DNA of 64,000 nt from the sequence record PQ850617.1; one strand, given 5' to 3'. Numbering within the stretch: position 1 is the stretch's first letter; every line of letters starts with the position of its first letter. The stretch comes from Escherichia phage ManiMatter_Bas94. Both the position numbers and the translations under genes were made by a program. Shown here in pieces: positions 49,816 to 61,254 of the stretch. The notes under the pieces were generated by a model that saw only the letters and a program-made list of their open reading frames with translations, had not been told where the DNA came from and ran no database searches.

Positions 49816-51012
49816 TTATTTTCCTAAAAATAATCCGCTCATAATACCATCCCACTCAGAGGATGGGATCACTGAATACTCCGAACTTTGGTCCAGAGTT
49901 CCACTACTAAATCGCTGAACAATGTTATAGATGTTGAACAGGTCTTTAGCCTCAGTACGGATACCGTAGACTAATTTATCAGATGTTCTTTCATCTTTAG
50001 ATACCCGACGAGCAAAATTAACCAGAAGGTTGTCACATTTAAGCGTTTCTGACCCACTCTCTACCAAATCAGGGTGCATCACAGGCAAGAACATCGAGTT
50101 ATTGACTCGCAACTCTGCTGTTTCGTCATTCTCATAATGAATCCACTTAAAGTCTTCATCACGGAAGTGACCACAACCATCTCTGTACGACTGCTGACGC
50201 CAAGGCACTTGAAATGCTTCAGCGTATTTATCAGCCATGCCGACTGTAAACAGCGACGCTGGGAAGATACAAGCATCCCAATCATTACCAACCAGAGTTG
50301 CTTTAGTTTCCCCCAAGAGGTTAGTGTAAGTGCTAACCATTCGGGAGTAAATGTAAGCCTGAAGAATTGTCCAGCCTTCAATCAACCATTTATGAAGGAA
50401 GGTTTCAACTTGACTCTCTTCGTCTTCGCAATAGAAGGTTCGGTCTAGCATTAAATAGAACAGACAACGATCAGCAGGGATGTTCTCAGTTGCTACACCC
50501 ATAAAACCTTTCTCGTGCCAGCGTAAACAGGAGGGACGATCTTTGTCCACAAATGCTTCCATAGCTTCCAGTACAGCACGAGGTGAGGTTTGGTATTCAG
50601 GGTTTTTACTATTCCAACGATCAATGTTGTTCTTAGGAGGTGTGTCTTCATCTTCATACGAACACCAACTTAAAGCTTCGGATACATGCTCTGCGTCATG
50701 CCAACGTCTAAAACCTAACATCTTCATGTGAGTTCCGGAGTTCCAGATATGCTTGATTTTACACATATCCATCTCTCGGCTTAACAGGAACTCTTCCCCA
50801 TCAGCACTACGAACGTTAGCTTCTTCATGCCACACTCGAACGTGCATATTCCACCCATGAGTTGCCTCATACATATTAGGGTCGAAGTATTCATATTCGT
50901 CGTCATCTTCATCAACGCCACCATTATAGTTGCGAAGCTGAAGGAATCCATAACAAGGAGGGTTAACCGTTAAAACATTACCTTCAGTATCTTCTAATGT
51001 TACTGGAAACAT
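49816..51012 (-). CDS. Cluster protein of unknown function (398 aa)
   Basis: ORF-track ORF and first large gene of the cluster. Confidence 0.45.
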   Translation of the reverse strand: MFPVTLEDTEGNVLTVNPPCYGFLQLRNYNGGVDEDDDEYEYFDPNMYEATHGWNMHVRVWHEEANVRSADGEEFLLSREMDMCKIKHIWNSGTHMKMLGFRRWHDAEHVSEALSWCSYEDEDTPPKNNIDRWNSKNPEYQTSPRAVLEAMEAFVDKDRPSCLRWHEKGFMGVATENIPADRCLFYLMLDRTFYCEDEESQVETFLHKWLIEGWTILQAYIYSRMVSTYTNLLGETKATLVGNDWDACIFPASLFTVGMADKYAEAFQVPWRQQSYRDGCGHFRDEDFKWIHYENDETAELRVNNSMFLPVMHPDLVESGSETLKCDNLLVNFARRVSKDERTSDKLVYGIRTEAKDLFNIYNIVQRFSSGTLDQSSEYSVIPSSEWDGIMSGLFLGK

Positions 51013-51023
51013 TATACCAACCT

Positions 51024-51386
51024 CTATTGGTTTTTAATCAACTCAATAGACTTACGGATATAAAGAATATCTCGGAAGTTTCTGTAGTTGTTCATAAATT
51101 GATGCTTCTGGAACTCAGCTTCTTCCAGAGCTTTCTTTGCGTCTGCGTAGTTTTTACGGGCAAGACATACAACCCGCTCTGGTAACATGTTTGCACGATG
51201 GATTAGATACTTGTGAGCTTTCATATTGCTTTGCTCACGAGCAATCTTACCTTTAGCAACTTTGATACCATTTGCAATCCAAGCAAGTTCTTGCTCAAGC
51301 TCATCGTTGGACATTCCACCGAGGTTTGATGCAACCTTGTTCAGAGTTTCAATATTAACGTTGCCCTTAATGGGACGTGTATTCAT
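51024..51386 (-). CDS. Coiled-coil protein (120 aa)
   Basis: ORF-track ORF, heptad-rich. Confidence 0.45.
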   Translation of the reverse strand: MNTRPIKGNVNIETLNKVASNLGGMSNDELEQELAWIANGIKVAKGKIAREQSNMKAHKYLIHRANMLPERVVCLARKNYADAKKALEEAEFQKHQFMNNYRNFRDILYIRKSIELIKNQ

Positions 51387-51388
51387 AC

Positions 51389-51541
51389 TTACTCCTGTTG
51401 TTTACACTCGTCAATAACCCACTGATAAGTGGATTGCCCAGAAAAGAAACACTGAATAAATCCAGATGTTCTCTGCGTTACCAGTGCTAGTGCACATATC
51501 ACTACCGCTGCTGCTAGCAGTTTCATATCTAATTTAGACAT
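51389..51541 (-). CDS. Small secreted/membrane protein (50 aa)
   Basis: Hand translation gives MSKLDMKLLAAAVVICALALVTQRTSGFIQCFFSGQSTYQWVIDECKQQE. Confidence 0.4.
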   Translation of the reverse strand: MSKLDMKLLAAAVVICALALVTQRTSGFIQCFFSGQSTYQWVIDECKQQE

Positions 51542-51558
51542 ATTTCCTCTCTTTGAAT

Positions 51559-51586
51559 TTAAAAAAGGACTCTCCGAAAAGAGCCA
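51559..51586 (-). terminator. Rho-independent terminator (one bulge)
   Basis: Minus strand reads ggctct-tttcgg-agag(t)cc followed by tttttt. Confidence 0.6.
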
Positions 51587-51772
51587 AACTTTAAATCCAA
51601 AAAAAGATATTACCCAATATCTGTGGATAACCTGCTCTTAAAATATCTATCCGACGGATGTTTGAGGAACACTCCTCGCCCTAGCATCGGCCCCATACGG
51701 GAAATAAATTAAGATTAGGTTAGTTGAGTCAGAATAACTCACATAGCCTTCTCCGGAAGAAGGCTATAGATG

Positions 51773-52006
51773 TTACTCGCCTTTCTTAGCACGATCTTTG
51801 GCAGTTTTGCCAGTGCGGATGCGGTGTGAAACGTTAACCAGAGTGCCACCATCAACTACGGTAACGCTCTTGTTTTTAGCCAGATCAAACACAGCCTTCT
51901 CTGTGCCACCCAAGCGAATTTGCTTAGGTTCACTGAAGGTTTGGGTTGATTTAGATTGGAACTGGAACGGTTGACGGATTGCATCAATTGCACTTACTTT
52001 AGACAT
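51773..52006 (-). CDS. Hypothetical basic protein (77 aa)
   Basis: ORF-track ORF flanked by long structured spacers. Confidence 0.45.
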   Translation of the reverse strand: MSKVSAIDAIRQPFQFQSKSTQTFSEPKQIRLGGTEKAVFDLAKNKSVTVVDGGTLVNVSHRIRTGKTAKDRAKKGE

Positions 52007-52112
52007 AGGGGAAATTCCTTAAAAAATCATGGCTGCGTAGAGGGAATTCCCTACGCAAATTAGGCCGCCTAAAAAGAGGCGTCATAGTACTAAAAGGAGG
52101 AGAGAAGAGGGC

Positions 52113-52229
52113 TTATTTAGCTACCTTTTTCTGTCCGTTTACGAACCAGATAATTGTTCCATCAGGTTGTCGTTGACCAAAGCCTTTCTGGTTAATCATA
52201 TCGTCATAAGAATATGCTTTACGTCTCAT
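52113..52229 (-). CDS. Small hypothetical protein (38 aa)
   Basis: Hand translation gives MRRKAYSYDDMINQKGFGQRQPDGTIIWFVNGQKKVAK. Confidence 0.3.
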   Translation of the reverse strand: MRRKAYSYDDMINQKGFGQRQPDGTIIWFVNGQKKVAK

Positions 52230-52232
52230 CTG

Positions 52233-52478
52233 TCACTCCTGAACAACTGACATACGAATCATTTCTACCGGAGTGTCACCTTTCATAACACCCAGCACAC
52301 CAGTCAGAAGATTAACTGTAGTAATCCAGTCTTTTTCTACAGAGATTTTGCTGGATACATTGGCAACACGCATATGATACTGAGGTGATGCTGTTCCTCT
52401 CTGAACTACGAAAGGGTTTCCGGGAATAATTGTAGCCAGCGAAACTGTGTTATCTTTAATCTTTGGGATGATTTTCAT
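52233..52478 (-). CDS. Hypothetical protein (81 aa)
   Basis: ORF-track ORF. Confidence 0.45.
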   Translation of the reverse strand: MKIIPKIKDNTVSLATIIPGNPFVVQRGTASPQYHMRVANVSSKISVEKDWITTVNLLTGVLGVMKGDTPVEMIRMSVVQE

Positions 52479-52486
52479 CTTGATTC

Positions 52487-52798
52487 CTATTTAAGTTTAA
52501 GGCTAACATTAAGGTGCATACACGCCCTGTTCTGTACAGCGGCATAACTTCTACCGAGCATGTCTGCCATTCTCTGAATAGGCATGAACCCAGCATTACG
52601 AATAACAAACTGATCTTCTTCTTCCGTCCACTTGACACGTAGAGAAGCCCTTGATATACCAAACTTGGTACAGGCTGTGTTAACAGCATTCTCTGTAACA
52701 TTCATAATCTGAGCAACTTCTTGAACCGAATACTCTTTGATTAGTCTCCGAAGATTTTCAATCTGCATCGGAGTCCATATAGTTCTTCGTGCTTTCAT
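52487..52798 (-). CDS. Tandem Myb/SANT-like HTH DNA-binding protein
   Basis: Two repeats: WTPMQIENLRRLIKE..VQEVAQIMN.TENAV and WTEEEDQFVIRNAG..IQRMADMLGRSYAAVQNR. Confidence 0.5.
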   Translation of the reverse strand: MKARRTIWTPMQIENLRRLIKEYSVQEVAQIMNVTENAVNTACTKFGISRASLRVKWTEEEDQFVIRNAGFMPIQRMADMLGRSYAAVQNRACMHLNVSLKLK

Positions 52799-53093
52799 AT
52801 ACCCTCCAATTAAACATTTATATAAGACTTGCTTAGATAAAGATTCAATAAAATAGGGGGAGGGGACGAATCCTCCCTTATCCTATTAATTAGTATTGCA
52901 TGTAAGATCTAACAATCGGTTTCCTTTGTAGGAATAAGCGTTATGCTCATCCAGCACTAAACTCCCGCCCCCTTAGTGGGCTGGGTTATTAAAGGGTAAC
53001 GCCCTTATGGGCTAGTTACGTGAATGTTAGTTTGATAGGAGATCTGAAGTCCTATCTCAAAGGACTCTCGTAAGAATCCTTCACGATAAGCTC

Positions 53094-53291
53094 TTAATAT
53101 ACTAATCCGTGTAAGAGAAACACTCTATTAGTTAACTCTGCTTTAGCTCTGTAATAAGCCTTAGAACCTAACAGGCGGCTCTTAACAAAGAACTTGATGT
53201 CATTGCTTACGTCTTGTATTAAACGCTCCTGTACAGCTTCTGAGGAGCTATTAATTGAATCAATTAACACCTTTGTAGATGTGTAATTCAC
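53094..53291 (-). CDS. Hypothetical protein (65 aa)
   Basis: GTG 53291 is preferred (AAGGAG, 7 nt). The listed longer ORF overlaps the lipoprotein gene by 89 nt. Confidence 0.35.
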   Translation of the reverse strand: MNYTSTKVLIDSINSSSEAVQERLIQDVSNDIKFFVKSRLLGSKAYYRAKAELTNRVFLLHGLVY

Positions 53292-53292
53292 A

Positions 53293-53574
53293 TCACCACT
53301 CCTTACCGGTTGTAGTTGTAGAGCCACCACACCACTGTGCATCAGATAAGGTTTTAGTCTCCTCATCCATTGCTGCACCATTCATGCATGAGATACCATT
53401 GTAACGCATATCAATTTCGCCAGAAGGAACCTTCTCACCTTTATGCCAGCGAGATACACAAATACCTTCCACTGCTACTGCACACCATCCATCAGGACGG
53501 CTCTGTACGCAGCCTGTAAGGGCCACACAGACAATGAAGATACAGATTAAGGATATTACACCACTCCAACTCAT
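53293..53574 (-). CDS. Small Cys-rich lipoprotein (93 aa)
   Basis: Internal ATG 53574 gives MSWSGVISLICIFIVCVALTGC-VQSR, with a textbook lipobox LTGC. The listed N-terminal extension runs through the tRNA-like element. Confidence 0.6.
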   Translation of the reverse strand: MSWSGVISLICIFIVCVALTGCVQSRPDGWCAVAVEGICVSRWHKGEKVPSGEIDMRYNGISCMNGAAMDEETKTLSDAQWCGGSTTTTGKEW

Positions 53575-53597
53575 AACACACCTCCAAGAGCTTCTAG

Positions 53598-53677
53598 TGA
53601 GGATGACAGGATTTGAACCTGCATACTCCAATTACTTCTTTAACGACCGCTTAGAAGGCGGGGAAGATACATCCTCA
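53598..53677 (-). tRNA. tRNA-like element (possible degenerate tRNA-Arg UCU); non-canonical by eye
   Basis: The minus strand has a 7-8 bp acceptor stem GAGGATG/CATCCTC, a perfect T arm GCAGG-TTCAAAT-CCTGT, and a hairpin CCGC-CTTCTAA-GCGG with an anticodon-like loop (UCU). I could not fold a D arm: only 7 nt lie between the acceptor stem and that hairpin, and 23 nt follow it. Confidence 0.4.
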
Positions 53678-53717
53678 TTAAGAATTCTCGTTAAAGCTGG
53701 TTTAAATCACATCAACC

Positions 53718-53969
53718 TCAAGCACAAGCAGGGAGAGTGATGATTTTATACTTGCCATCAAATTCTCCAAACAAACCTAAGAATGTAGGACTATAAGTAC
53801 CAGTACAAACAAACTCATCAAACAGTTCGTTATAGCTAGGCTTAATCTTCCAAGCCCATACATAACCCATCTTGTCAATTGCAATGTAACGAGTGTTTAG
53901 AGGAACAGTCATCATCACACCATCAACTTCGACCACTTTAGTGATTGGTGCAGCTTGGAAGTTTTTCAT
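53718..53969 (-). CDS. Hypothetical protein (83 aa)
   Basis: ORF-track ORF. Confidence 0.45.
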   Translation of the reverse strand: MKNFQAAPITKVVEVDGVMMTVPLNTRYIAIDKMGYVWAWKIKPSYNELFDEFVCTGTYSPTFLGLFGEFDGKYKIITLPACA

Positions 53970-53983
53970 ACTTTACCTTTAAT

Positions 53984-54017
53984 TAAAACAACAAAGGCCA
54001 CCCAATCGGGCAGCCTT
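53984..54017 (-). terminator. Rho-independent terminator
   Basis: Minus strand reads aggctgccc-gatt-gggtggcct (two G-U pairs, paired only on this strand) followed by ttgttgtttt. Confidence 0.7.
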
Positions 54018-54021
54018 TCTT

Positions 54022-54231
54022 TTATTGACTCACACCACGAATCAAATGATTCTGTAGCATTTCATCTTCTGCATTATAAAGGAATGCGAACATCAATTCC
54101 TTAGCCACATCTCTTGAGCAGTTAAGACACTTAGAGATTTGAGCTAGTTGCATATTACGTTCGGTGTGCTCCACTAAGGCAATGCGAATGATCTCTCGCA
54201 TACCTATTACATGGGCTGTTTTAACCGGCAT
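54022..54231 (-). CDS. Hypothetical HTH-like protein (69 aa)
   Basis: ATG 54231 is preferred because it overlaps the upstream 46-aa ORF's stop. The listed start at 54273 is an alternative. Confidence 0.4.
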   Translation of the reverse strand: MPVKTAHVIGMREIIRIALVEHTERNMQLAQISKCLNCSRDVAKELMFAFLYNAEDEMLQNHLIRGVSQ

Positions 54232-54361
54232 AGGTCCAATTACCTTGCTTGTCACGGATAGTGGACATTGCATGAACCCAGAAGCCTTCCAGTTTCAGAG
54301 CACCATTAGTTACTGCATCCATACGTTCAGGGCGGTTCATACGTTTGGTTGATACTTTCAT
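54221..54361 (-). CDS. Small hypothetical protein (46 aa)
   Basis: Hand translation gives MKVSTKRMNRPERMDAVTNGALKLEGFWVHAMSTIRDKQGNWTYAG. Confidence 0.35.
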   Translation of the reverse strand: MKVSTKRMNRPERMDAVTNGALKLEGFWVHAMSTIRDKQGNWTYAG

Positions 54362-54661
54362 ACCTATCTCTCTTTGTTAGTGAAGGCATTATTGCCAGTT
54401 GATATAGCAGATAGCCCTATTAAAAAGGACTACCGACTATCTAAACTGGTGAAGACTCCCTACCCCTAGGAAGTCTCCTGAATCCCAAACCAATATGTAC
54501 CCCTACATATCGGAAAGTCTACCGAAAATTAACAGGTTTTAGTCTAACACCGGATGTTCGAGCAAGCTCTCCCTAGCGGTGTGGCATATGCCTGATTTAA
54601 TAAGTTAATGAGGAACACCCTCACATAGCCCTCTGATAAGCACAAGGGCTATAAGTCGGTG

Positions 54662-54958
54662 TTACTTGTCGGCTTCAATCTCTTGATGCTTAGCTATAGC
54701 TACTCGCAAGTCCTCATTAGCACGAGTAAGGCGTAATACTTCATGGTTGAGATTCTGAAGACGCTTGTTTCTATCTTCAACTTGCGTAATAAGATCATTA
54801 AGAGTTGCTTTAACTTTCTCATTATACATCTCATCCACTCGGACTAGAGATTTGTACATTCTCTCCCAGCTTGCTGCTTTGTTCCTAAGGATAATAAATC
54901 CTATAACGCTGATAGTTAAACAGCTTACAAAAAGGAATTTATATATCTCTAAAGTCAT
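54662..54958 (-). CDS. Membrane-anchored coiled-coil protein (98 aa)
   Basis: TMD FLFVSCLTISVIGFIIL followed by heptad repeats. Confidence 0.45.
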   Translation of the reverse strand: MTLEIYKFLFVSCLTISVIGFIILRNKAASWERMYKSLVRVDEMYNEKVKATLNDLITQVEDRNKRLQNLNHEVLRLTRANEDLRVAIAKHQEIEADK

Positions 54959-55157
54959 ATTATTTACCCTTTATCAGAGATTAAAAGTAATATTATTTAA
55001 GTAAGTTATATTTAGTAAACTTATTTTCTAAGAAATTTTCAAAGGGTCTATATACAGAGCATTACCCATAGTCCCAGAACACTACCATCTTTTTCAATAA
55101 ATTTACTAAGTGGTTGGTTTATAAAGGAATTTAGTTTGTCAAATCTGGCACTAGTGA

Positions 55158-55547
55158 TTATTCCCTAGAGCTATTATCGAACACTAAATCACCACAATAC
55201 ATAGGATTGGCATACCATTTTGGCACCCCTTCGCTCTTACTCTGAAAGTAAGTCCCACTGTACAGCGGAACATAATTCTTCTTAAGGGCACGTTTAGCAA
55301 GTCTCTCGCTTTCTCCAATGGCTTGCTTAGTCATCGGATTTTTATCACGAATCAGCTTTACATAACGTTTATAAGGTTTCTCCTGTTTTAATAGTACCGG
55401 AATCCACTCAAACTGGTTCTTTTGTCTTATCACCTGTTCAGCGGTCAGTTTTCGTTGGGCCATTCTATTTATCACGGTATCCGCAACCATAGCCTTACAT
55501 GCGGTTGGCTGATTCCCTGCCTCATAATAAATAGTCAATGTCAACAT
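55158..55547 (-). CDS. SleB-type cell-wall hydrolase (Hydrolase_2)
   Basis: LTIYYEAGNQPTACKAMVADTVINRMAQRK..AEQVIRQKNQFEW follows the SleB family pattern. Confidence 0.65.
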   Translation of the reverse strand: MLTLTIYYEAGNQPTACKAMVADTVINRMAQRKLTAEQVIRQKNQFEWIPVLLKQEKPYKRYVKLIRDKNPMTKQAIGESERLAKRALKKNYVPLYSGTYFQSKSEGVPKWYANPMYCGDLVFDNSSRE

Positions 55548-57040: not shown

Positions 57041-57097
57041 TCAATTAACTATTGCCACTTCTATAATACAAAGACGGTATTCAAGGTTACTACTCAT
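57041..57097 (-). CDS. 18-codon mini-ORF with a strong SD
   Basis: AGGAGG-7 nt-ATG gives MSSNLEYRLCIIEVAIVN. It lies directly after two terminators. The listed 61-aa ORF spans those hairpins and is rejected. Confidence 0.3.
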   Translation of the reverse strand: MSSNLEYRLCIIEVAIVN

Positions 57098-57121
57098 ACT
57101 TATACCTCCTGTTTTACGGGC

Positions 57122-57149
57122 ATAAAAAAGCCCCAGCCGTAGCCGGGGC
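57122..57149 (-). terminator. Rho-independent terminator (second of a tandem pair)
   Basis: Minus strand reads gccccggc-tacg-gctggggc followed by tttttt. Confidence 0.8.
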
Positions 57150-57201
57150 AAACCTGAAAGCAACGCATGACCGTTGCTATAAATACACTCGCAAATGCAC
57201 T

Positions 57202-57225
57202 TACAGCAACGCAAAAAGCCGCTCA
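57202..57225 (-). terminator. Rho-independent terminator (first of a tandem pair)
   Basis: Minus strand reads agccgcc-tttga-gcggct followed by ttttt. Confidence 0.75.
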
Positions 57226-57314
57226 AAGGCGGCTATGTGGAAGCTTCAAATGGGGAGAGGGCACGACGCGGCAGAAAGAGCGTCATAGTACTAAAAGAGG
57301 GGGCTGCATTCCTA

Positions 57315-59482: not shown

Positions 59483-60301
59483 GATATTCACCTTTCAATT
59501 ATAAGGGCACTATTGCCCCGCTCGCTATGAGCTTTCAAGCCATTATTGACTTAACTATAAACGCTCACTATAAACGCTTATAGGTAAGCGGAGCGGTCTT
59601 ATCAGGAGTTAACCTTGCCGCTCCCTTATCCGTGATGTTTCATCTGGTATCTTTAATTAGTCGCTATAAATAAAGCCGACTTGATAGCGATGATCAATCA
59701 TCACAATAAGGCCAGTGTGTCCGACTCAATTTAATTACATTACTGTAACCGTCGGCAATATCGTTTACTCTGCTTTCGCTCCCGCCTATCCTTTTGTATC
59801 AGCTCTTTATCGCTAGTCATCGCCCACTACGGGATACTATTGCGAAAAAGTCACTAACCGCCTAATATTCCGGCGTTTTATATCTTTCGGCAAGTTTACT
59901 ACACAACACGACTATGTACTTTCATCCTAAGACGAATATCAAGCCGCTCACGTCGTAAACGTTCACACTAAAACCTTATTGTTAAATAGCAATTTGCCAC
60001 TTTTTAACCGTTCGCCGCCGCCCTCAATTGGGCGTTAATTCGTCGGGATTGTCTACCCTGATCAGTTTCTTTCATTGTAGCGCCTTTTTAGCTAGGCCGC
60101 CGCTACCCATTAACCGTGGGCGATTAGTTTTAGCCTTGCGTGCACTCAATGATTCCGCTTACCAGTGGTGACGTTTCCAGTTAAGGGATTGTAAAGCTGT
60201 TTACCCTGATAATTTAGGGAGCTTTACGCCGTTTTATCTGGTATGTTTTCCGATGGTCATTATCATCCAACATATGCAACCGATATAGGGGAACGTTTAA
60301 A

Positions 60302-60314
60302 TTATTAAAGAGCG
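60302..60314 (-). promoter_or_regulatory. boxA-like element 1 (CGCTCTTTAATAA)
   Basis: Minus-strand sequence about 90 nt downstream of the predicted P1 start. Compare rrn boxA TGCTCTTTAACAA. Confidence 0.55.
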
Positions 60315-60408
60315 GTAAATCTGTCAGTGTGCTTTCTCACACTACGCAACTGTTAGCCGTTGTGTCGCTTTTTCACTGAAGCGGTGATTTGCTTAGTGAC
60401 TTGTGCTT

Positions 60409-60437
60409 ATTATGAATCATTTTGCTTCCGCCGTCAA
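60409..60437 (-). promoter_or_regulatory. Sigma70 promoter P1 (TTGACG-17-CATAAT)
   Basis: Read on the minus strand, with A-tracts upstream (gatgaaaaaagattaaaaaagtga). Confidence 0.7.
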
Positions 60438-60541
60438 TCACTTTTTTAATCTTTTTTCATCGTTCCCGCTGTTGGGAAGATATATCAATCAGCTATATTT
60501 GATTGAAGATTAAGCGATCAGGCTTGAACTTATGATTCATA

Positions 60542-60554
60542 TTTTTAAAGAGCG
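60542..60554 (-). promoter_or_regulatory. boxA-like element 2 (CGCTCTTTAAAAA)
   Basis: Lies 13-25 nt downstream of the predicted P2 start. Confidence 0.55.
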
Positions 60555-60573
60555 GTTTTTCTGACTTGTGATC

Positions 60574-60602
60574 AGTATAAACTTACTTTCTCACGTTGTC
60601 AA
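60574..60602 (-). promoter_or_regulatory. Sigma70 promoter P2 (TTGACA-17-TATACT)
   Basis: Read on the minus strand, with an A-tract upstream (gataaaaaagagat). Confidence 0.75.
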
Positions 60603-60676
60603 TCTCTTTTTTATCGTCTTCTTTGATTCTCTTCCCTTATCTCGCGTGAATCTATGCGAAAGGGCAAGACGATAAA

Positions 60677-60689
60677 TTTTTAAAGAGCG
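60677..60689 (-). promoter_or_regulatory. boxA-like element 3 (CGCTCTTTAAAAATTTATCG)
   Basis: Lies 28-40 nt downstream of P3. The similarity extends to the rrn leader TGCTCTTTAACAATTTATCA (from memory). Confidence 0.6.
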
Positions 60690-60723
60690 GGATTTTTTAA
60701 GTCATCGCTGACCTTGTACACTC

Positions 60724-60752
60724 ATTATAGGTTAGGCTTTTTCCGGTGTCAA
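60724..60752 (-). promoter_or_regulatory. Sigma70 promoter P3 (TTGACA-17-TATAAT, full consensus)
   Basis: Minus strand reads ttgaca ccggaaaaagcctaacc tataat. Confidence 0.85.
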
Positions 60753-60771
60753 TATTCTTTTTCAGAATATT
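60751..60771 (-). promoter_or_regulatory. boxB-like hairpin A (AAUAUUCU-GAAAA-AGAAUAUU)
   Basis: 8-bp stem with a GAAAA pentaloop closed by U-A, 17 nt downstream of boxA 4. It overlaps the UP/-35 edge of P3. Confidence 0.45.
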
Positions 60772-60788
60772 TTCACTTTCTAGCCTGA

Positions 60789-60801
60789 TTTTTAAAGAGC
60801 G
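60789..60801 (-). promoter_or_regulatory. boxA-like element 4 (CGCTCTTTAAAAA)
   Basis: Downstream of P4 and followed by hairpin A. Confidence 0.55.
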
Positions 60802-60944
60802 TTTAAAGCTGTATGGCTCCCATAACACCACTTGATGATCAGTTAACCTACGATCATTCAGGACTATAGTACCCGCTTAGTTGCGTCTGACTTGCTTCAC
60901 TCACTAGGGAGTTACTTGAGCGGTCATCTTGTCTTTCTAAGCTC

Positions 60945-60972
60945 ATTATAGGTTAGGCTTTTCAGTTGTCAA
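60945..60972 (-). promoter_or_regulatory. Sigma70 promoter P4 (TTGACA-16-TATAAT)
   Basis: Part of a roughly 80-bp direct repeat with the P3 unit (60721-60802 versus 60942-61022). Confidence 0.8.
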
Positions 60973-60990
60973 ATACTTTTTCAAGTATTT
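60971..60990 (-). promoter_or_regulatory. boxB-like hairpin B (AAAUACUU-GAAA-AAGUAUUU)
   Basis: 8-bp stem with a GNRA loop, 18 nt downstream of boxA 5. The stem differs from hairpin A at several positions but stays complementary. Confidence 0.45.
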
Positions 60991-61008
60991 TTTCACTTTC
61001 TAGCCTAC

Positions 61009-61021
61009 TTTTTAAAGAGCG
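61009..61021 (-). promoter_or_regulatory. boxA-like element 5 (CGCTCTTTAAAAA)
   Basis: Lies 41-53 nt downstream of the predicted P5 start. Confidence 0.55.
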
Positions 61022-61068
61022 GGGCAATTTCTTGCCTTGTATGTTTTACATCGTACCCGATGGAAATG

Positions 61069-61096
61069 AGTATACGCGAGCCTTTAGAAAGTGCAA
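61069..61096 (-). promoter_or_regulatory. Sigma70 promoter P5 (TTGCAC-16-TATACT)
   Basis: Read on the minus strand, with AT-rich sequence upstream. Confidence 0.55.
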
Positions 61097-61254
61097 TAGG
61101 GGAAAGCAAATTATTTTAAACTTTTTCACTGTAGGGAAGATAGAAGAGCGGGCTGACGTGGTACACCATAGGAAACGGCTTGTAAAGCGATAATAGGCGG
61201 CCTAAAACGCACCACAATGAGCTAAAAGGGGATAAGGTATATAATCACCTTAGA

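What the first reader, a model, noticed from the sequence alone, without database searches (positions are those of the whole stretch)
51545..54660. Conserved structured intergenic elements in unusually long spacers of the early/middle region
Three ORF-free spacers of 220-300 bp (51545-51772, 52799-53093, 54362-54661) interrupt an otherwise overlapping gene train. Two of them share a modular element.

- Directly after the upstream stop there is a perfect hairpin preceded by TCACATAGCC: atagccttct-ccgg-aagaaggctat at 51742-51767, and atagccct...agggctat at 54624-54651.
- About 40 nt further on the minus strand there is a stem-enclosed motif: CCGA-UGCUAGGGC-[GAGGA..UCCUC]-AAACAUCCG-UCGG (51690-51651) versus CACCG-CUAGGGA-[GAGC..CUC]-GAACAUCC-GGUG (54582-54549). 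Both the outer and inner stems covary while CUAGGG and AACAUCC stay fixed.
- Separately, a 26-nt motif AAAGAG(G)CGTCATAGTACTAAAAG(G)AGG recurs at 52073-52100 and 57275-57301. Its minus-strand form contains GACGCTCTTTCTG, which is boxA-like.
- The third spacer has four further strong hairpins, for example ATAGG-GGGAGG...CCTCCC-...CCTAT at 52853-52886.

These could be RNA processing sites, riboregulators or transcription-factor sites.
Basis: seen in the sequence. Interest (0 to 1): 0.5.

Follow-up and report, generated by a model that had tools for sequence, protein, structure and literature searches.

The report
Phage RNA domain with host DnaA-box copy
Two long gaps between early genes of this phiEco32-like coliphage hold copies of an undescribed, conserved folded RNA domain, and one copy is fused to a near-exact copy of the E. 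coli nrdD DnaA-binding site followed by a terminator, which suggests the phage taps host replication and dNTP control.

Summary
The window is a Kuravirus (phiEco32-like; closest relative LAMP), and the early genes lie on the minus strand.

- **S1 and S3 are paralogous RNA domains.** S1 (51545-51772) and S3 (54362-54661) share two hairpins after the upstream stop, a long-range helix, a 3-bp hairpin, and a 6-bp plus 5-bp helix. That helix encloses an invariant symmetric internal loop, CUAGGGN/NAACAUC.
- **The fold is supported by covariation.** 97% of cells pair, against 81% in shuffles, and 7 of 14 pairs show compensatory changes. G·U pairs occur only on the sense strand.
- **The domain is conserved widely.** It occurs in about 100 Kuraviruses, in the Salmonella 7-11 group, and in one CVT22-like metagenomic phage. 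It matches no Rfam family.
- **S1 carries host-derived sequence.** A 35-42-nt stretch matches one site in 5423 of 5426 E. coli genomes, the nrdD leader. It includes the ChIP-verified double DnaA box (21/22 identical), is antisense to nrdD mRNA next to its SD, and is followed by a conserved intrinsic terminator.
- **S2 and the 26-nt motif are weaker.** S2 is conserved but shows no covariation. The 26-nt motif is real, but "boxA-like" is weak; true boxA copies sit at the early promoters.

Function is inferred. My reading is that S1 is a checkpoint module combining a DnaA site or decoy with an antisense RNA. Processing or stability roles remain rivals.

The parts
51742..51768 (-). S1 P1: hairpin directly after the gp93 stop. 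The lower stem UAUAGCC/GGCUAU(G) is invariant; the upper stem and loop vary.
   Evidence: RNAalifold on 17 sequences gives 9 pairs, including UA<->AU and UG/CG/UA variants. Coordinates.
51725..51741 (-). S1 P2: hairpin UGAGU..ACUCA
   Evidence: UA<->CG and UA<->GC compensatory changes.
51709..51722 (-). S1 P3/P3b 5' strand (UAACCU..UCUUAA). It pairs with 51628-51641.
   Evidence: The P3 letters are invariant. P3b covaries (AU<->UA, CG<->UA). The paralogs show AUUAAC/GUUAAU (S3) and AUUAC/GUAAU (L156).
51646..51702 (-). S1 core domain: P4 (CCC-GUAU-GGG), one unpaired purine, then P5 (CCGAUG/CGUCGG) enclosing the invariant 7x7 loop CUAGGGN/NAACAUC and P6 (GAGGA/UCCUC).
   Evidence: Model R1 scores 75 bits here.
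51602..51647 (-). Copy of the host nrdD leader, about 35-42 nt. It contains the double DnaA box TTAAGAGCA-GG-TTATCCACA (about 51622-51641) and is antisense to nrdD mRNA at about -45..-9.
   Evidence: BLAST finds one place in each of 5423/5426 E. coli genomes. The ChIP-seq table is in PMC11317965. The duplex energy is -48 kcal/mol and the cofold ddG is -21 against -4.6 for controls.
51599..51621 (-). A/U hairpin GAUAUU-GGGU-AAUAUC followed by U7. It is present in Kuraviruses only and absent from the 7-11 group.
   Evidence: Alignment A2.
51561..51585 (-). Conserved intrinsic terminator GRCUCU..AGAGUCC + U6, ending 17 nt before the gp90 RBS.
   Evidence: It is conserved in Kuraviruses and the 7-11 group, with G·U/A-U variation on the sense strand.
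54609..54653 (-). S3 P1 and P2 hairpins, directly after the gp116 stop.
   Evidence: In the Bas87/ECBP2 clade, the P1 of S1 is the S3-type sequence.
54528..54609 (-). S3 domain: P3 (AUUAAC 54604-54609 / GUUAAU 54528-54533) enclosing P4 (GGC-AUAU-GCC) and P5/P6 with the same invariant internal loop.
   Evidence: Model R1 scores 59 bits at 54542-54593.
54451..54510 (-). S3-specific 3' hairpins (AUAUGUA-GGGG-UACAUAU; GGAGACUUCC..GGGAGUCUUC). There is no terminator and no E. coli match.
52799..53093 (-). S2: two hairpins after the stop (53059-53082, 53034-53056), an AACUAAC linker, a clade-specific middle part, and the terminator GGGAGG..CCCUCCC + U run (52847-52886).
   Evidence: Conserved in both Kuravirus clades, but no covariation.
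52065..52100 (-). 26-nt motif, copy A: pyrimidine tract, UUUUAGUACUAU, then a small hairpin (A)CGCC-UCUUUUUA-GGCG.
57265..57301 (-). 26-nt motif, copy B, with hairpin GACGC-UCUUUCUGCC-GCGUC. It opens a fourth long spacer that has two intrinsic terminators.

Best explanation
S1 and S3 are two paralogous copies of an undescribed structured RNA domain. The domain is made as part of the long sigma70-driven early transcript on the minus strand.

In S1 the 3' strand of the domain's closing helix runs into a 35-42-nt copy of the E. coli nrdD leader. That copy contains the leader's double DnaA box. A conserved intrinsic terminator follows, ending 17 nt before gp90.

I read S1 as the checkpoint between the immediate-early genes (gp124 to gp93) and the gp90-to-gp69 block, which includes gp79, primase/helicase and part of the DNA polymerase. 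In this reading host DnaA binds the phage copy of the nrdD operator. Bound DnaA acts as a decoy that draws DnaA off host sites such as nrdDG, as a roadblock in front of the terminator, or as both. The folded RNA domain stabilises or marks the transcript.

- **Shown:** the fold, its conservation, the identity to the host site, and the terminator.
- **Inferred:** DnaA binding to phage DNA, and any effect on read-through or on the host.
For: - **Fold.** RNAalifold finds 48 pairs, 12 with compensatory change, on 17 S1 sequences from two phage families. For the core on 25 distinct S1, S3 and L156 sequences, 97.3% of cells pair against 80.7% in shuffles and 34-49% when slid. Seven of 14 pairs change on both sides. 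G·U pairs lie on the sense strand only.
- **Conservation.** S1 is noncoding in 103 phage records and 69-73% identical to the Salmonella 7-11 group, where the flanking genes are not alignable. A third lineage, L156, keeps the loop letters exactly while the stems change.
- **Host copy.** One place per genome matches in 5423/5426 E. coli genomes, 14-55 nt upstream of the nrdD ATG. Another 1339 nt of other spacers give no E. coli match.
- **DnaA binding of the host site.** It is a ChIP-seq DnaA-bound region, tTTAAGAACAggTTATCCACAg (PMC11317965). S1 has tTTAAGAGCAggTTATCCACAg.
- **Host conservation.** The core TGTGGATAACCTGTTCT is invariant in E. coli, Salmonella, Citrobacter and Klebsiella leaders that are otherwise diverged.
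- **Motive.** NrdD rises when DnaA-ATP falls (PMC12371093), and the phage has no RNR genes.
- **Terminator.** It is conserved in all S1 copies.
Against: - There are no expression, RNA-end or binding data for any Kuravirus.
- Only one high-affinity box pair is present. TTATNCACA is not enriched in the window (5 against 2.8 expected).
- The weaker left box is poorly kept in the Salmonella phages.
- The closing helix already explains why GGUUA is invariant.
- The shared RNA domain also occurs without a DnaA box or a terminator (S3), so its own job is not explained by this model.
- The extra match to E. coli-specific flanks could simply mark a recent capture of host DNA.
Confidence: 0.4

Rival explanations
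1. S1 yields a trans-acting antisense RNA. This would be a 3'-UTR-type or terminated early RNA ending at 51561. Its segment between the core and the terminator pairs with host nrdD mRNA from about -45 to -9, right next to the SD. The pairing would change NrdD synthesis by blocking the ribosome, by making an RNase III substrate, or by opening the weak SD-sequestering hairpin. The P1-P6 domain would be the stabilising scaffold, and S3 would be a sister RNA with another payload.
For: - The phage sense strand is the strand antisense to nrdD.
- The duplex is 35 bp with 2 mismatches, at -48 kcal/mol.
- Cofold ddG is -21.0 kcal/mol, against -4.6±2.0 with the segment shuffled and -3.2 for S3.
- 7-11 S1 against the Salmonella leader gives -20.5.
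- Kuravirus matches the E. coli-specific flank CCCAAU.UCUG, which Salmonella, Citrobacter and Klebsiella lack.
- A terminator lies downstream.
Against: - The orientation alone is a 1-in-2 event.
- Half of the segment is locked in P3/P3b.
- No promoter for a discrete RNA was found.
- The Salmonella phages match only the 17-19-nt core that DnaA binding would also conserve, and their flanks do not track Salmonella.
- Repressing the only anaerobic RNR seems to work against a phage that has no RNR of its own.
Confidence: 0.25
2. The elements are punctuation of the polycistronic early mRNA. Hairpins P1 and P2 protect the 3' end of the upstream message. The A/U-rich linker or the P5/P6 irregular helix is cut by RNase E or RNase III. 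P3-P6 protect the new 5' end. The nrdD-like stretch would be a fossil of captured host DNA with no function of its own.
For: - S1, S2 and S3 share the same plan: stop codon, two hairpins, then an (A)ACUAAC-like A/U-rich linker.
- The position between cistrons of a transcript longer than 20 kb resembles the early-region processing signals of T7 (recalled from my own knowledge).
- The upstream gene varies while the element begins at a fixed AGUAAC-like boundary.
Against: - Simple protective hairpins do not need 14 invariant loop letters kept across three phage families.
- P5 plus P6 give only 11 Watson-Crick pairs, which is short for RNase III.
- The host-like stretch is invariant in all S1 copies, which is unlike a decaying fossil.
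Confidence: 0.2
3. S1 is, or belongs to, the phage replication origin. Early transcription through a structured RNA region would form an R-loop, and DnaA at the adjacent box would load the helicase, as at ColE1-type origins.
For: - A high-affinity double DnaA box lies next to an A/T-rich stretch and a transcript 3' end.
- The origin of phiEco32-like phages is, to my knowledge, not mapped.
Against: - GC skew follows gene orientation only, with no feature at 51.6 kb.
- There is no cluster of boxes.
- The A/T hairpin is deleted in the 7-11 group.
- The phage has its own primase/helicase.
Confidence: 0.07
4. The shared RNA domain is a processive antitermination signal that makes RNA polymerase read through the terminators of the early operon, in the manner of put or nut sites.
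For: - Two adjacent stem-loops are separated by a single purine, and terminators lie downstream.
- The 7-11 study states that an antitermination strategy 'remains to be defined' (PMC8948821).
Against: - There is no similarity to the HK022 put region (best 7.5 bits).
- The elements lie 6-9 kb downstream of the promoters.
- Consensus boxA copies, two of them followed by GAAA(A)-loop hairpins, sit right after the early promoters and are the more likely loading sites.
- S3 has no terminator behind it.
Confidence: 0.05

Closest known systems
E. coli double DnaA boxes (nrdD, datA, DARS1/2, oriC R4, polA, purH), as mapped by DnaA ChIP-seq (PMC11317965)
   Same: S1 has two 9-mers 2 nt apart. The downstream one is the consensus TTATCCACA followed by G. 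Identity to the nrdD site is 21/22.
   Different: The site sits in a virulent phage, inside a transcribed early operon, fused to a folded RNA domain and followed by a terminator. DnaA binding to it has not been tested.
Phage- or prophage-encoded base-pairing sRNAs, and 3'-UTR-derived sRNAs that share the mRNA's terminator
   Same: A long complementarity to a host mRNA next to its SD, a structured body and an intrinsic terminator at the 3' end.
   Different: No promoter or processing site is known, part of the pairing region is sequestered in P3, and the same DNA is also a DnaA site.
Early-region RNase III processing signals of T7 (recalled from my own knowledge; not compared by sequence here)
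   Same: Repeated, conserved irregular hairpins with an internal loop, lying between cistrons of a podophage early transcript.
   Different: The helices are much shorter (6 + 5 bp). The loop is symmetric 7x7 with invariant letters kept across phage families. The domain is enclosed by a long-range helix together with a second small hairpin.
HK022 put RNAs
   Same: Two adjacent stem-loops with one unpaired nucleotide between them, in a phage early transcript that contains terminators.
   Different: No sequence or structure similarity. The elements are not next to the promoters, and boxA sites are present elsewhere.
PeSL-type 'mobile regulatory cassettes' of T4-type phages (recalled from my own knowledge; not compared by sequence here)
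   Same: A conserved intergenic stem-loop module at the borders of variable small early genes. There is also exchange between copies: the P1 of S1 is the S3 type in one clade.
   Different: No early promoter lies within the module. The module is far larger and has covarying long-range structure.

Membership tests
Any Rfam 15 family | Match to a curated covariance model | tested here: not met
   The only hit is tRNA at 53598-53676. In the spacers nothing scores better than E = 0.24, far below the gathering scores.
Double DnaA box (DnaA-bound sites of E. coli) | Two DnaA-box 9-mers 2-3 bp apart, one of them matching or close to TTATCCACA | tested here: met
   S1 reads TTAAGAGCA-GG-TTATCCACA-G. 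The ChIP-verified nrdD site reads TTAAGAACA-GG-TTATCCACA-G.
Double DnaA box (DnaA-bound sites of E. coli) | DnaA occupancy in vivo or in vitro | not testable with these tools
   This needs ChIP or EMSA on phage DNA.
Trans-acting antisense sRNA | Extended complementarity to a target mRNA at or near the translation start region | tested here: met
   35 bp with 2 mismatches at -45..-9 of nrdD. The ddG is -21 against -4.6 for controls.
Trans-acting antisense sRNA | A discrete transcript with its own promoter or a processing site, plus a terminator | tested here: inconclusive
   A terminator is present. No sigma70-like or gp36-type promoter lies in the spacer. RNA ends are unknown.
Intrinsic terminator | G+C-rich hairpin followed by a U run | tested here: met
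   S1 at 51561-51585 and S2 at 52858-52877. The S1 terminator is conserved across both families.
HK022 put antiterminator RNA | Sequence and structure similarity to putL/putR | tested here: not met
   Model R1 on the HK022 PL-PR region scores at best 7.5 bits, E = 0.31.
HK022 put antiterminator RNA | Location just downstream of the early promoters | tested here: not met
   The early promoters lie at about 60.4-61.1 kb. S3 and S1 lie 6-9 kb downstream of them.
Lambda-type nut site / rrn boxA | boxA consensus (C/U)GCUCUUUA in single-stranded RNA | tested here: not met
   S1 and S3 contain no boxA. In the 26-nt motif, copy B reads CGCUCUUUC and copy A CGCCUCUUUUUA, and the stretch is part of a hairpin. 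GCTCTTTAA occurs 5 times on the minus strand, all at 60.3-61.0 kb.
Riboswitch or attenuator with a terminator | A conserved alternative (antiterminator) pairing that excludes the terminator | tested here: not met
   AAGAGC could pair with GCUCUU in Kuraviruses only. This is not kept in the 7-11 group (alignment A2).
RNase III processing signal | About two turns of mostly double-stranded RNA, often with an internal loop | tested here: inconclusive
   P5 + loop + P6 amounts to 6 + 7 + 5 stacked positions, of which only 11 are Watson-Crick pairs. Cleavage is not testable here.
NrdR operator | Overlap with the two 16-bp NrdR boxes of nrdDG | tested here: not met
   The NrdR-box probe (PMC12176259) maps to L167:1643-1700. 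The S1 match is at L167:1501-1542.
Replication origin | A cluster of initiator boxes and a skew switch | tested here: not met
   There is a single box pair and no skew feature at 51.6 kb.

The most novel reading that the evidence does not exclude
S1 is a dual-use mimic of a host control region. As DNA it is a decoy of the nrdD DnaA operator. Amplified with the phage genome, it would titrate DnaA and so derepress host ribonucleotide reductases and disturb host initiation. As RNA it is an antisense partner of the nrdD leader. It is carried on a new class of folded RNA domain whose invariant 7x7 loop binds a conserved partner. S3 and the copy in a CVT22-like phage would be sister modules with other payloads.
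Probability: 0.2. Interest if true: 0.85.

Novelty: new variant of a known kind. Interest (0 to 1): 0.65.

Why it matters
- **A new RNA family with a testable handle.** phiEco32-like phages are a studied model for host-RNAP takeover and are common therapy candidates, yet their long early spacers have not been explained. This work defines an RNA family with unusually strong constraint, shared by three podophage groups.
- **A link from a virulent phage to host replication control.** A near-exact copy of a host DnaA operator has, to my knowledge, not been reported in a virulent phage that lacks its own ribonucleotide reductase. It links phage early gene control to the host's replication and dNTP circuitry.
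- **The experiments are simple.** Box and loop mutants, DnaA ChIP and nrdD reporters would test the idea directly.
- **A by-product for the host.** The double DnaA box is conserved in nrdD leaders of four enterobacterial genera. This supports the recent ChIP-based claim that DnaA controls the anaerobic reductase.

Tried and rejected
- **Rfam.** Gathering and E-value modes found nothing in the spacers.
- **Loose pattern scan.** GCTAGGG-N-AACATCC on IMG/VR gave 120 chance hits. A TATG-anchored pattern gave no new true members.
- **Strict pattern scan.** It found only Kuravirus and 7-11 relatives in viral and metagenome collections. In genome contigs it found L156 plus one Kuravirus-like contig (L157). 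The other two hits (L140, L155) look like chance matches because they have no stems.
- **CVT22.** Model R1 on CVT22, a relative of the L156 phage, found no copy.
- **HK022 put.** No similarity.
- **Promoters.** No gp36-type promoter (TAATGTATA) and no convincing sigma70 promoter lie in the spacers.
- **Small-peptide reading of S1.** Rejected, because the frame is broken by a 2-nt indel between families (sequence).
- **Riboswitch-style antiterminator pairing.** Not conserved.
- **NrdR-operator decoy.** Rejected, because the NrdR boxes lie about 100-150 bp away from the matched stretch.
- **Origin of replication.** No skew feature and no cluster of boxes.
- **Shared neighbouring proteins.** None between L156 and Kuravirus or 7-11.
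- **Host matches for the other spacers.** None.
- **RNAduplex on whole molecules.** Uninformative, because shuffles score as well. It was replaced by cofold ddG with segment-shuffle controls.
- **Papers not held.** The phiEco32 papers (PMC3275717, PMC2587145) are not in the library.

Full report
**Context.** The window is a Kuravirus, a phiEco32-like podophage. Region 51000-55200 is 96% identical to phage LAMP and matches 108 phage records. All genes from about 22.5 to 61.5 kb lie on the minus strand. LAMP's annotation numbers them after phiEco32, from gp85 to gp124.

The spacers lie as follows:
- S1 (51545-51772) lies between gp93 and gp90.
- S2 (52799-53093) lies between gp104 and gp99. gp99 is a sigma70-region-4-like HTH protein.
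- S3 (54362-54661) lies between gp116 and gp112.

According to the SU10 paper, which draws on the phiEco32 work, the early genes are transcribed from sigma70 promoters at the right end (PMC4281155). In the window I see five tandem consensus promoters at 60.4-61.1 kb. The spacers are therefore internal parts of a very long early transcript.

**Check of the observation.** Every feature is present and non-random.
- The three spacers fold far better than shuffles, with z = -6.1 (S1), -4.8 (S3) and -3.5 (S2).
- They are conserved as noncoding DNA. S1 occurs in 103 records and S3 in 98. S2 occurs in both Kuravirus clades.
- S1 is also 69-73% identical over 95% of its length to the Salmonella 7-11 group, which is classified in another family, Grimontviridae. 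There the neighbouring genes are not alignable at the DNA level.

**Anatomy.** RNAalifold on 17 distinct S1 sequences gives the following elements:
- P1, a hairpin after the stop codon. Its lower stem UAUAGCC/GGCUAU is invariant and its top varies.
- P2, a second hairpin.
- A long-range helix, P3 (UAACCU/AGGUUA) plus P3b (UCUUAA/UUAAGA).
- Enclosed by that helix, a 3-bp hairpin P4 (CCC-GUAU-GGG) and one unpaired purine.
- Then P5 (6 bp), which encloses P6 (5 bp) through a symmetric 7x7 internal loop, 5'-CUAGGGN / NAACAUC-3'.
- Finally an intrinsic terminator, 17 nt before the gp90 RBS.

Twelve pairs show compensatory change. Several pairs are G·U on the sense strand, which would be A·C on the other strand, so the transcribed strand is the one that folds.

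S3 has the same P1, P2, P4 and P5/P6 and a closing helix AUUAAC/GUUAAU. It has other 3' hairpins and no terminator.

A strict pattern scan found a third lineage, L156. It is a 48.7-kb contig binned in a Flavobacterium MAG, and its 446-aa protein is 41% identical to Citrobacter phage CVT22 of the Zobellviridae. L156 keeps all loop letters, while P4, P5, P6 and the closing helix (AUUAC/GUAAU) differ.

On 25 distinct cores aligned to model R1, 97.3% of cells pair. This compares with 80.7% in column shuffles and 34-49% with slid partners. Seven of 14 pairs change on both sides. One caution applies: these sequences represent only about six or seven independent lineages.

The two unspecified loop letters take only the combinations C/A, A/G or A/A, never C/G. 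That pattern is what a non-canonical pair would show, which is my inference.

No Rfam family matches. I found no paper describing these elements, in searches that were limited in scope.

**The unexpected part.** BLAST of S1 against 5426 complete E. coli genomes hits exactly one chromosomal place in 5423 of them. The match is 34-42 nt long at 86-95% identity.
- The place is 14-55 nt upstream of the nrdD start codon. nrdD encodes the anaerobic ribonucleotide reductase.
- S3 and a further 1036 nt of other spacers give no E. coli match at the same settings.
- The matched host stretch is not the NrdR operator, which lies about 100-150 bp further upstream.
- It is the 'double DnaA box' tTTAAGAACAggTTATCCACAg, reported as a strong DnaA ChIP-seq peak (PMC11317965). 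S1 reads tTTAAGAGCAggTTATCCACAg.
- In nrdD leaders of E. coli, Salmonella, C. rodentium and Klebsiella, TGTGGATAACCTGTTCT is invariant while the surrounding sequence diverges.
- All S1 copies keep AGGTTATCCACA.
- Kuravirus S1 also follows the E. coli-specific flank (CCCAAU.UCUG). The Salmonella phages match only the 17-19-nt core.

The phage sense strand corresponds to the strand antisense to nrdD. S1 RNA could therefore pair with the nrdD leader from -45 to -9, abutting the SD.
- The duplex energy is -48 kcal/mol.
- The cofold ddG is -21.0 kcal/mol. Controls give -4.6±2.0 with the segment shuffled and -3.2 for S3.

The phage encodes thymidylate synthase, thioredoxin and dCTP deaminase, but no ribonucleotide reductase. 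NrdD is reported to rise when DnaA-ATP is lowered (PMC12371093).

**Interpretation.**
- *Shown:* a new, strongly constrained RNA fold in two paralogous copies; a host-derived DnaA-box segment; and a conserved terminator in S1.
- *Inferred:* S1 is a checkpoint at the border between the immediate-early genes and the gp90-to-gp69 block. DnaA bound to the phage copy of the nrdD operator would act as a decoy, a roadblock, or both. Alternatively or in addition, the RNA would act as an antisense partner of the nrdD mRNA.

I rank the DNA-level DnaA reading first, because the host sequence is an experimentally bound site. The antisense reading comes second, and plain processing or stability punctuation third. 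Origin and antitermination readings come last. My reasons for ranking those last are the absence of a skew or box cluster, the lack of similarity to put, and the consensus boxA sites right behind the early promoters.

None of these models explains the role of the shared 7x7-loop domain itself. It carries no obvious translational operator, since it lies 115-250 nt from the next start codon. It is not tied to particular neighbouring genes either.

**S2 and the 26-nt motif.**
- S2 has the same opening plan: stop codon, two hairpins, then an AACUAAC linker. It ends in a terminator. Its hairpins never vary and its middle part differs between clades, so the structure is plausible but unproven.
- The 26-nt motif is conserved at both places in relatives. 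It consists of a pyrimidine tract, UUUUAGUACUAU, and a small hairpin with a U/C-rich loop. Its function is unknown and the boxA analogy is weak.

**Module borders.** The LAMP-like lineage lacks phiEco32 genes 91-92, 100-103 and 113-115. These genes lie directly next to S1, S2 and S3 in phiEco32. Across relatives at least five different upstream sequences abut the same AGUAAC-like 5' edge of S1 and of S3. In the Bas87/ECBP2 clade the P1 of S1 is the S3-type sequence. The elements therefore also mark recombination borders of the variable early genes.

Noticed in passing
window 60300-61100 (minus strand): Five tandem sigma70-consensus promoters (for example TTGACA-17-TATAAT at about 60970-60942 and 60750-60722). 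Each is followed within 20-140 nt by a consensus boxA, CGCUCUUUAA(A/U)AAU. GCTCTTTAA occurs 5 times on the minus strand at 60305-61020, against 0.83 expected for the whole window. Two boxA copies are followed by A/U hairpins with GAAAA or GAAA loops, a nut-like boxA+boxB layout that overlaps the next -35. This suggests Nus-factor antitermination of the long early operon.
   Followed up: partly
window 53598-53676 (minus strand): A tRNA-like gene scores 33 bits with Rfam but is missed by ARAGORN. It has an acceptor stem, a UCU anticodon arm and a T arm, almost no D arm, and a 20-nt insert. It differs from the normal tRNA-Arg of LAMP and phiEco32 at the same place and is shared with Bas93, 1-6af and FH3.
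   Followed up: partly
window 57096-57314 (minus strand): A fourth long spacer holds 26-nt motif copy B, two strong intrinsic terminators (57217-57234 and 57130-57149) and another hairpin, just before an AGGAGG RBS.
   Followed up: no
L167:1488-1700; L170, L171, L169 (host nrdD leaders): In E. coli, Salmonella, C. rodentium and Klebsiella the nrdD leader keeps two TGTGGATAA boxes about 70 nt apart. The proximal one is extended to TGTGGATAACCTGTTCT right before the SD, while the rest of the leader diverges. This is comparative support for DnaA control of nrdDG.
   Followed up: partly
window 51545-51600 (minus strand): The U-rich stretch before the S1 terminator is complementary to the A-rich stretch after it, which includes the gp90 SD (AAGAGAGGA). 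In read-through RNA the terminator hairpin would therefore cap a long helix that hides the gp90 RBS. A similar extended helix exists in 7-11, but there it does not include the RBS.
   Followed up: no
L133 (Salmonella phage pSal-SNUABM-01) 2708-3436: A ProQ/FinO-family RNA-binding protein is annotated about 5.5-6 kb upstream of the S1 homologue in the same early operon. It is a possible partner for structured RNAs that end in a terminator.
   Followed up: no
L156 (JBOFGJ010000684.1, MAG labelled Flavobacterium): The contig looks like a CVT22-like (Zobellviridae-type) podophage genome of 48.7 kb rather than bacterial DNA. It has small same-strand ORFs and a 446-aa protein 41% identical to CVT22 gp67. 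The bin assignment, and hence the host, is doubtful.
   Followed up: partly
L134/L130 (Bas87, ECBP2) S1 region; window 54624-54653: In the Bas87/ECBP2 clade the first hairpin of S1 carries the S3-type sequence (ATAGCCCTYGTGAGTATCAGAGGGCTAT). This indicates exchange between the two paralogous elements.
   Followed up: no
L134 3495-3763 (Bas87_0109, Bas87_0108) and other records: Some deposited genomes annotate short 'hypothetical proteins' across the S3 or S1 homologues. Given the conserved RNA fold and the frame-breaking indels, these calls are probably spurious.
   Followed up: no
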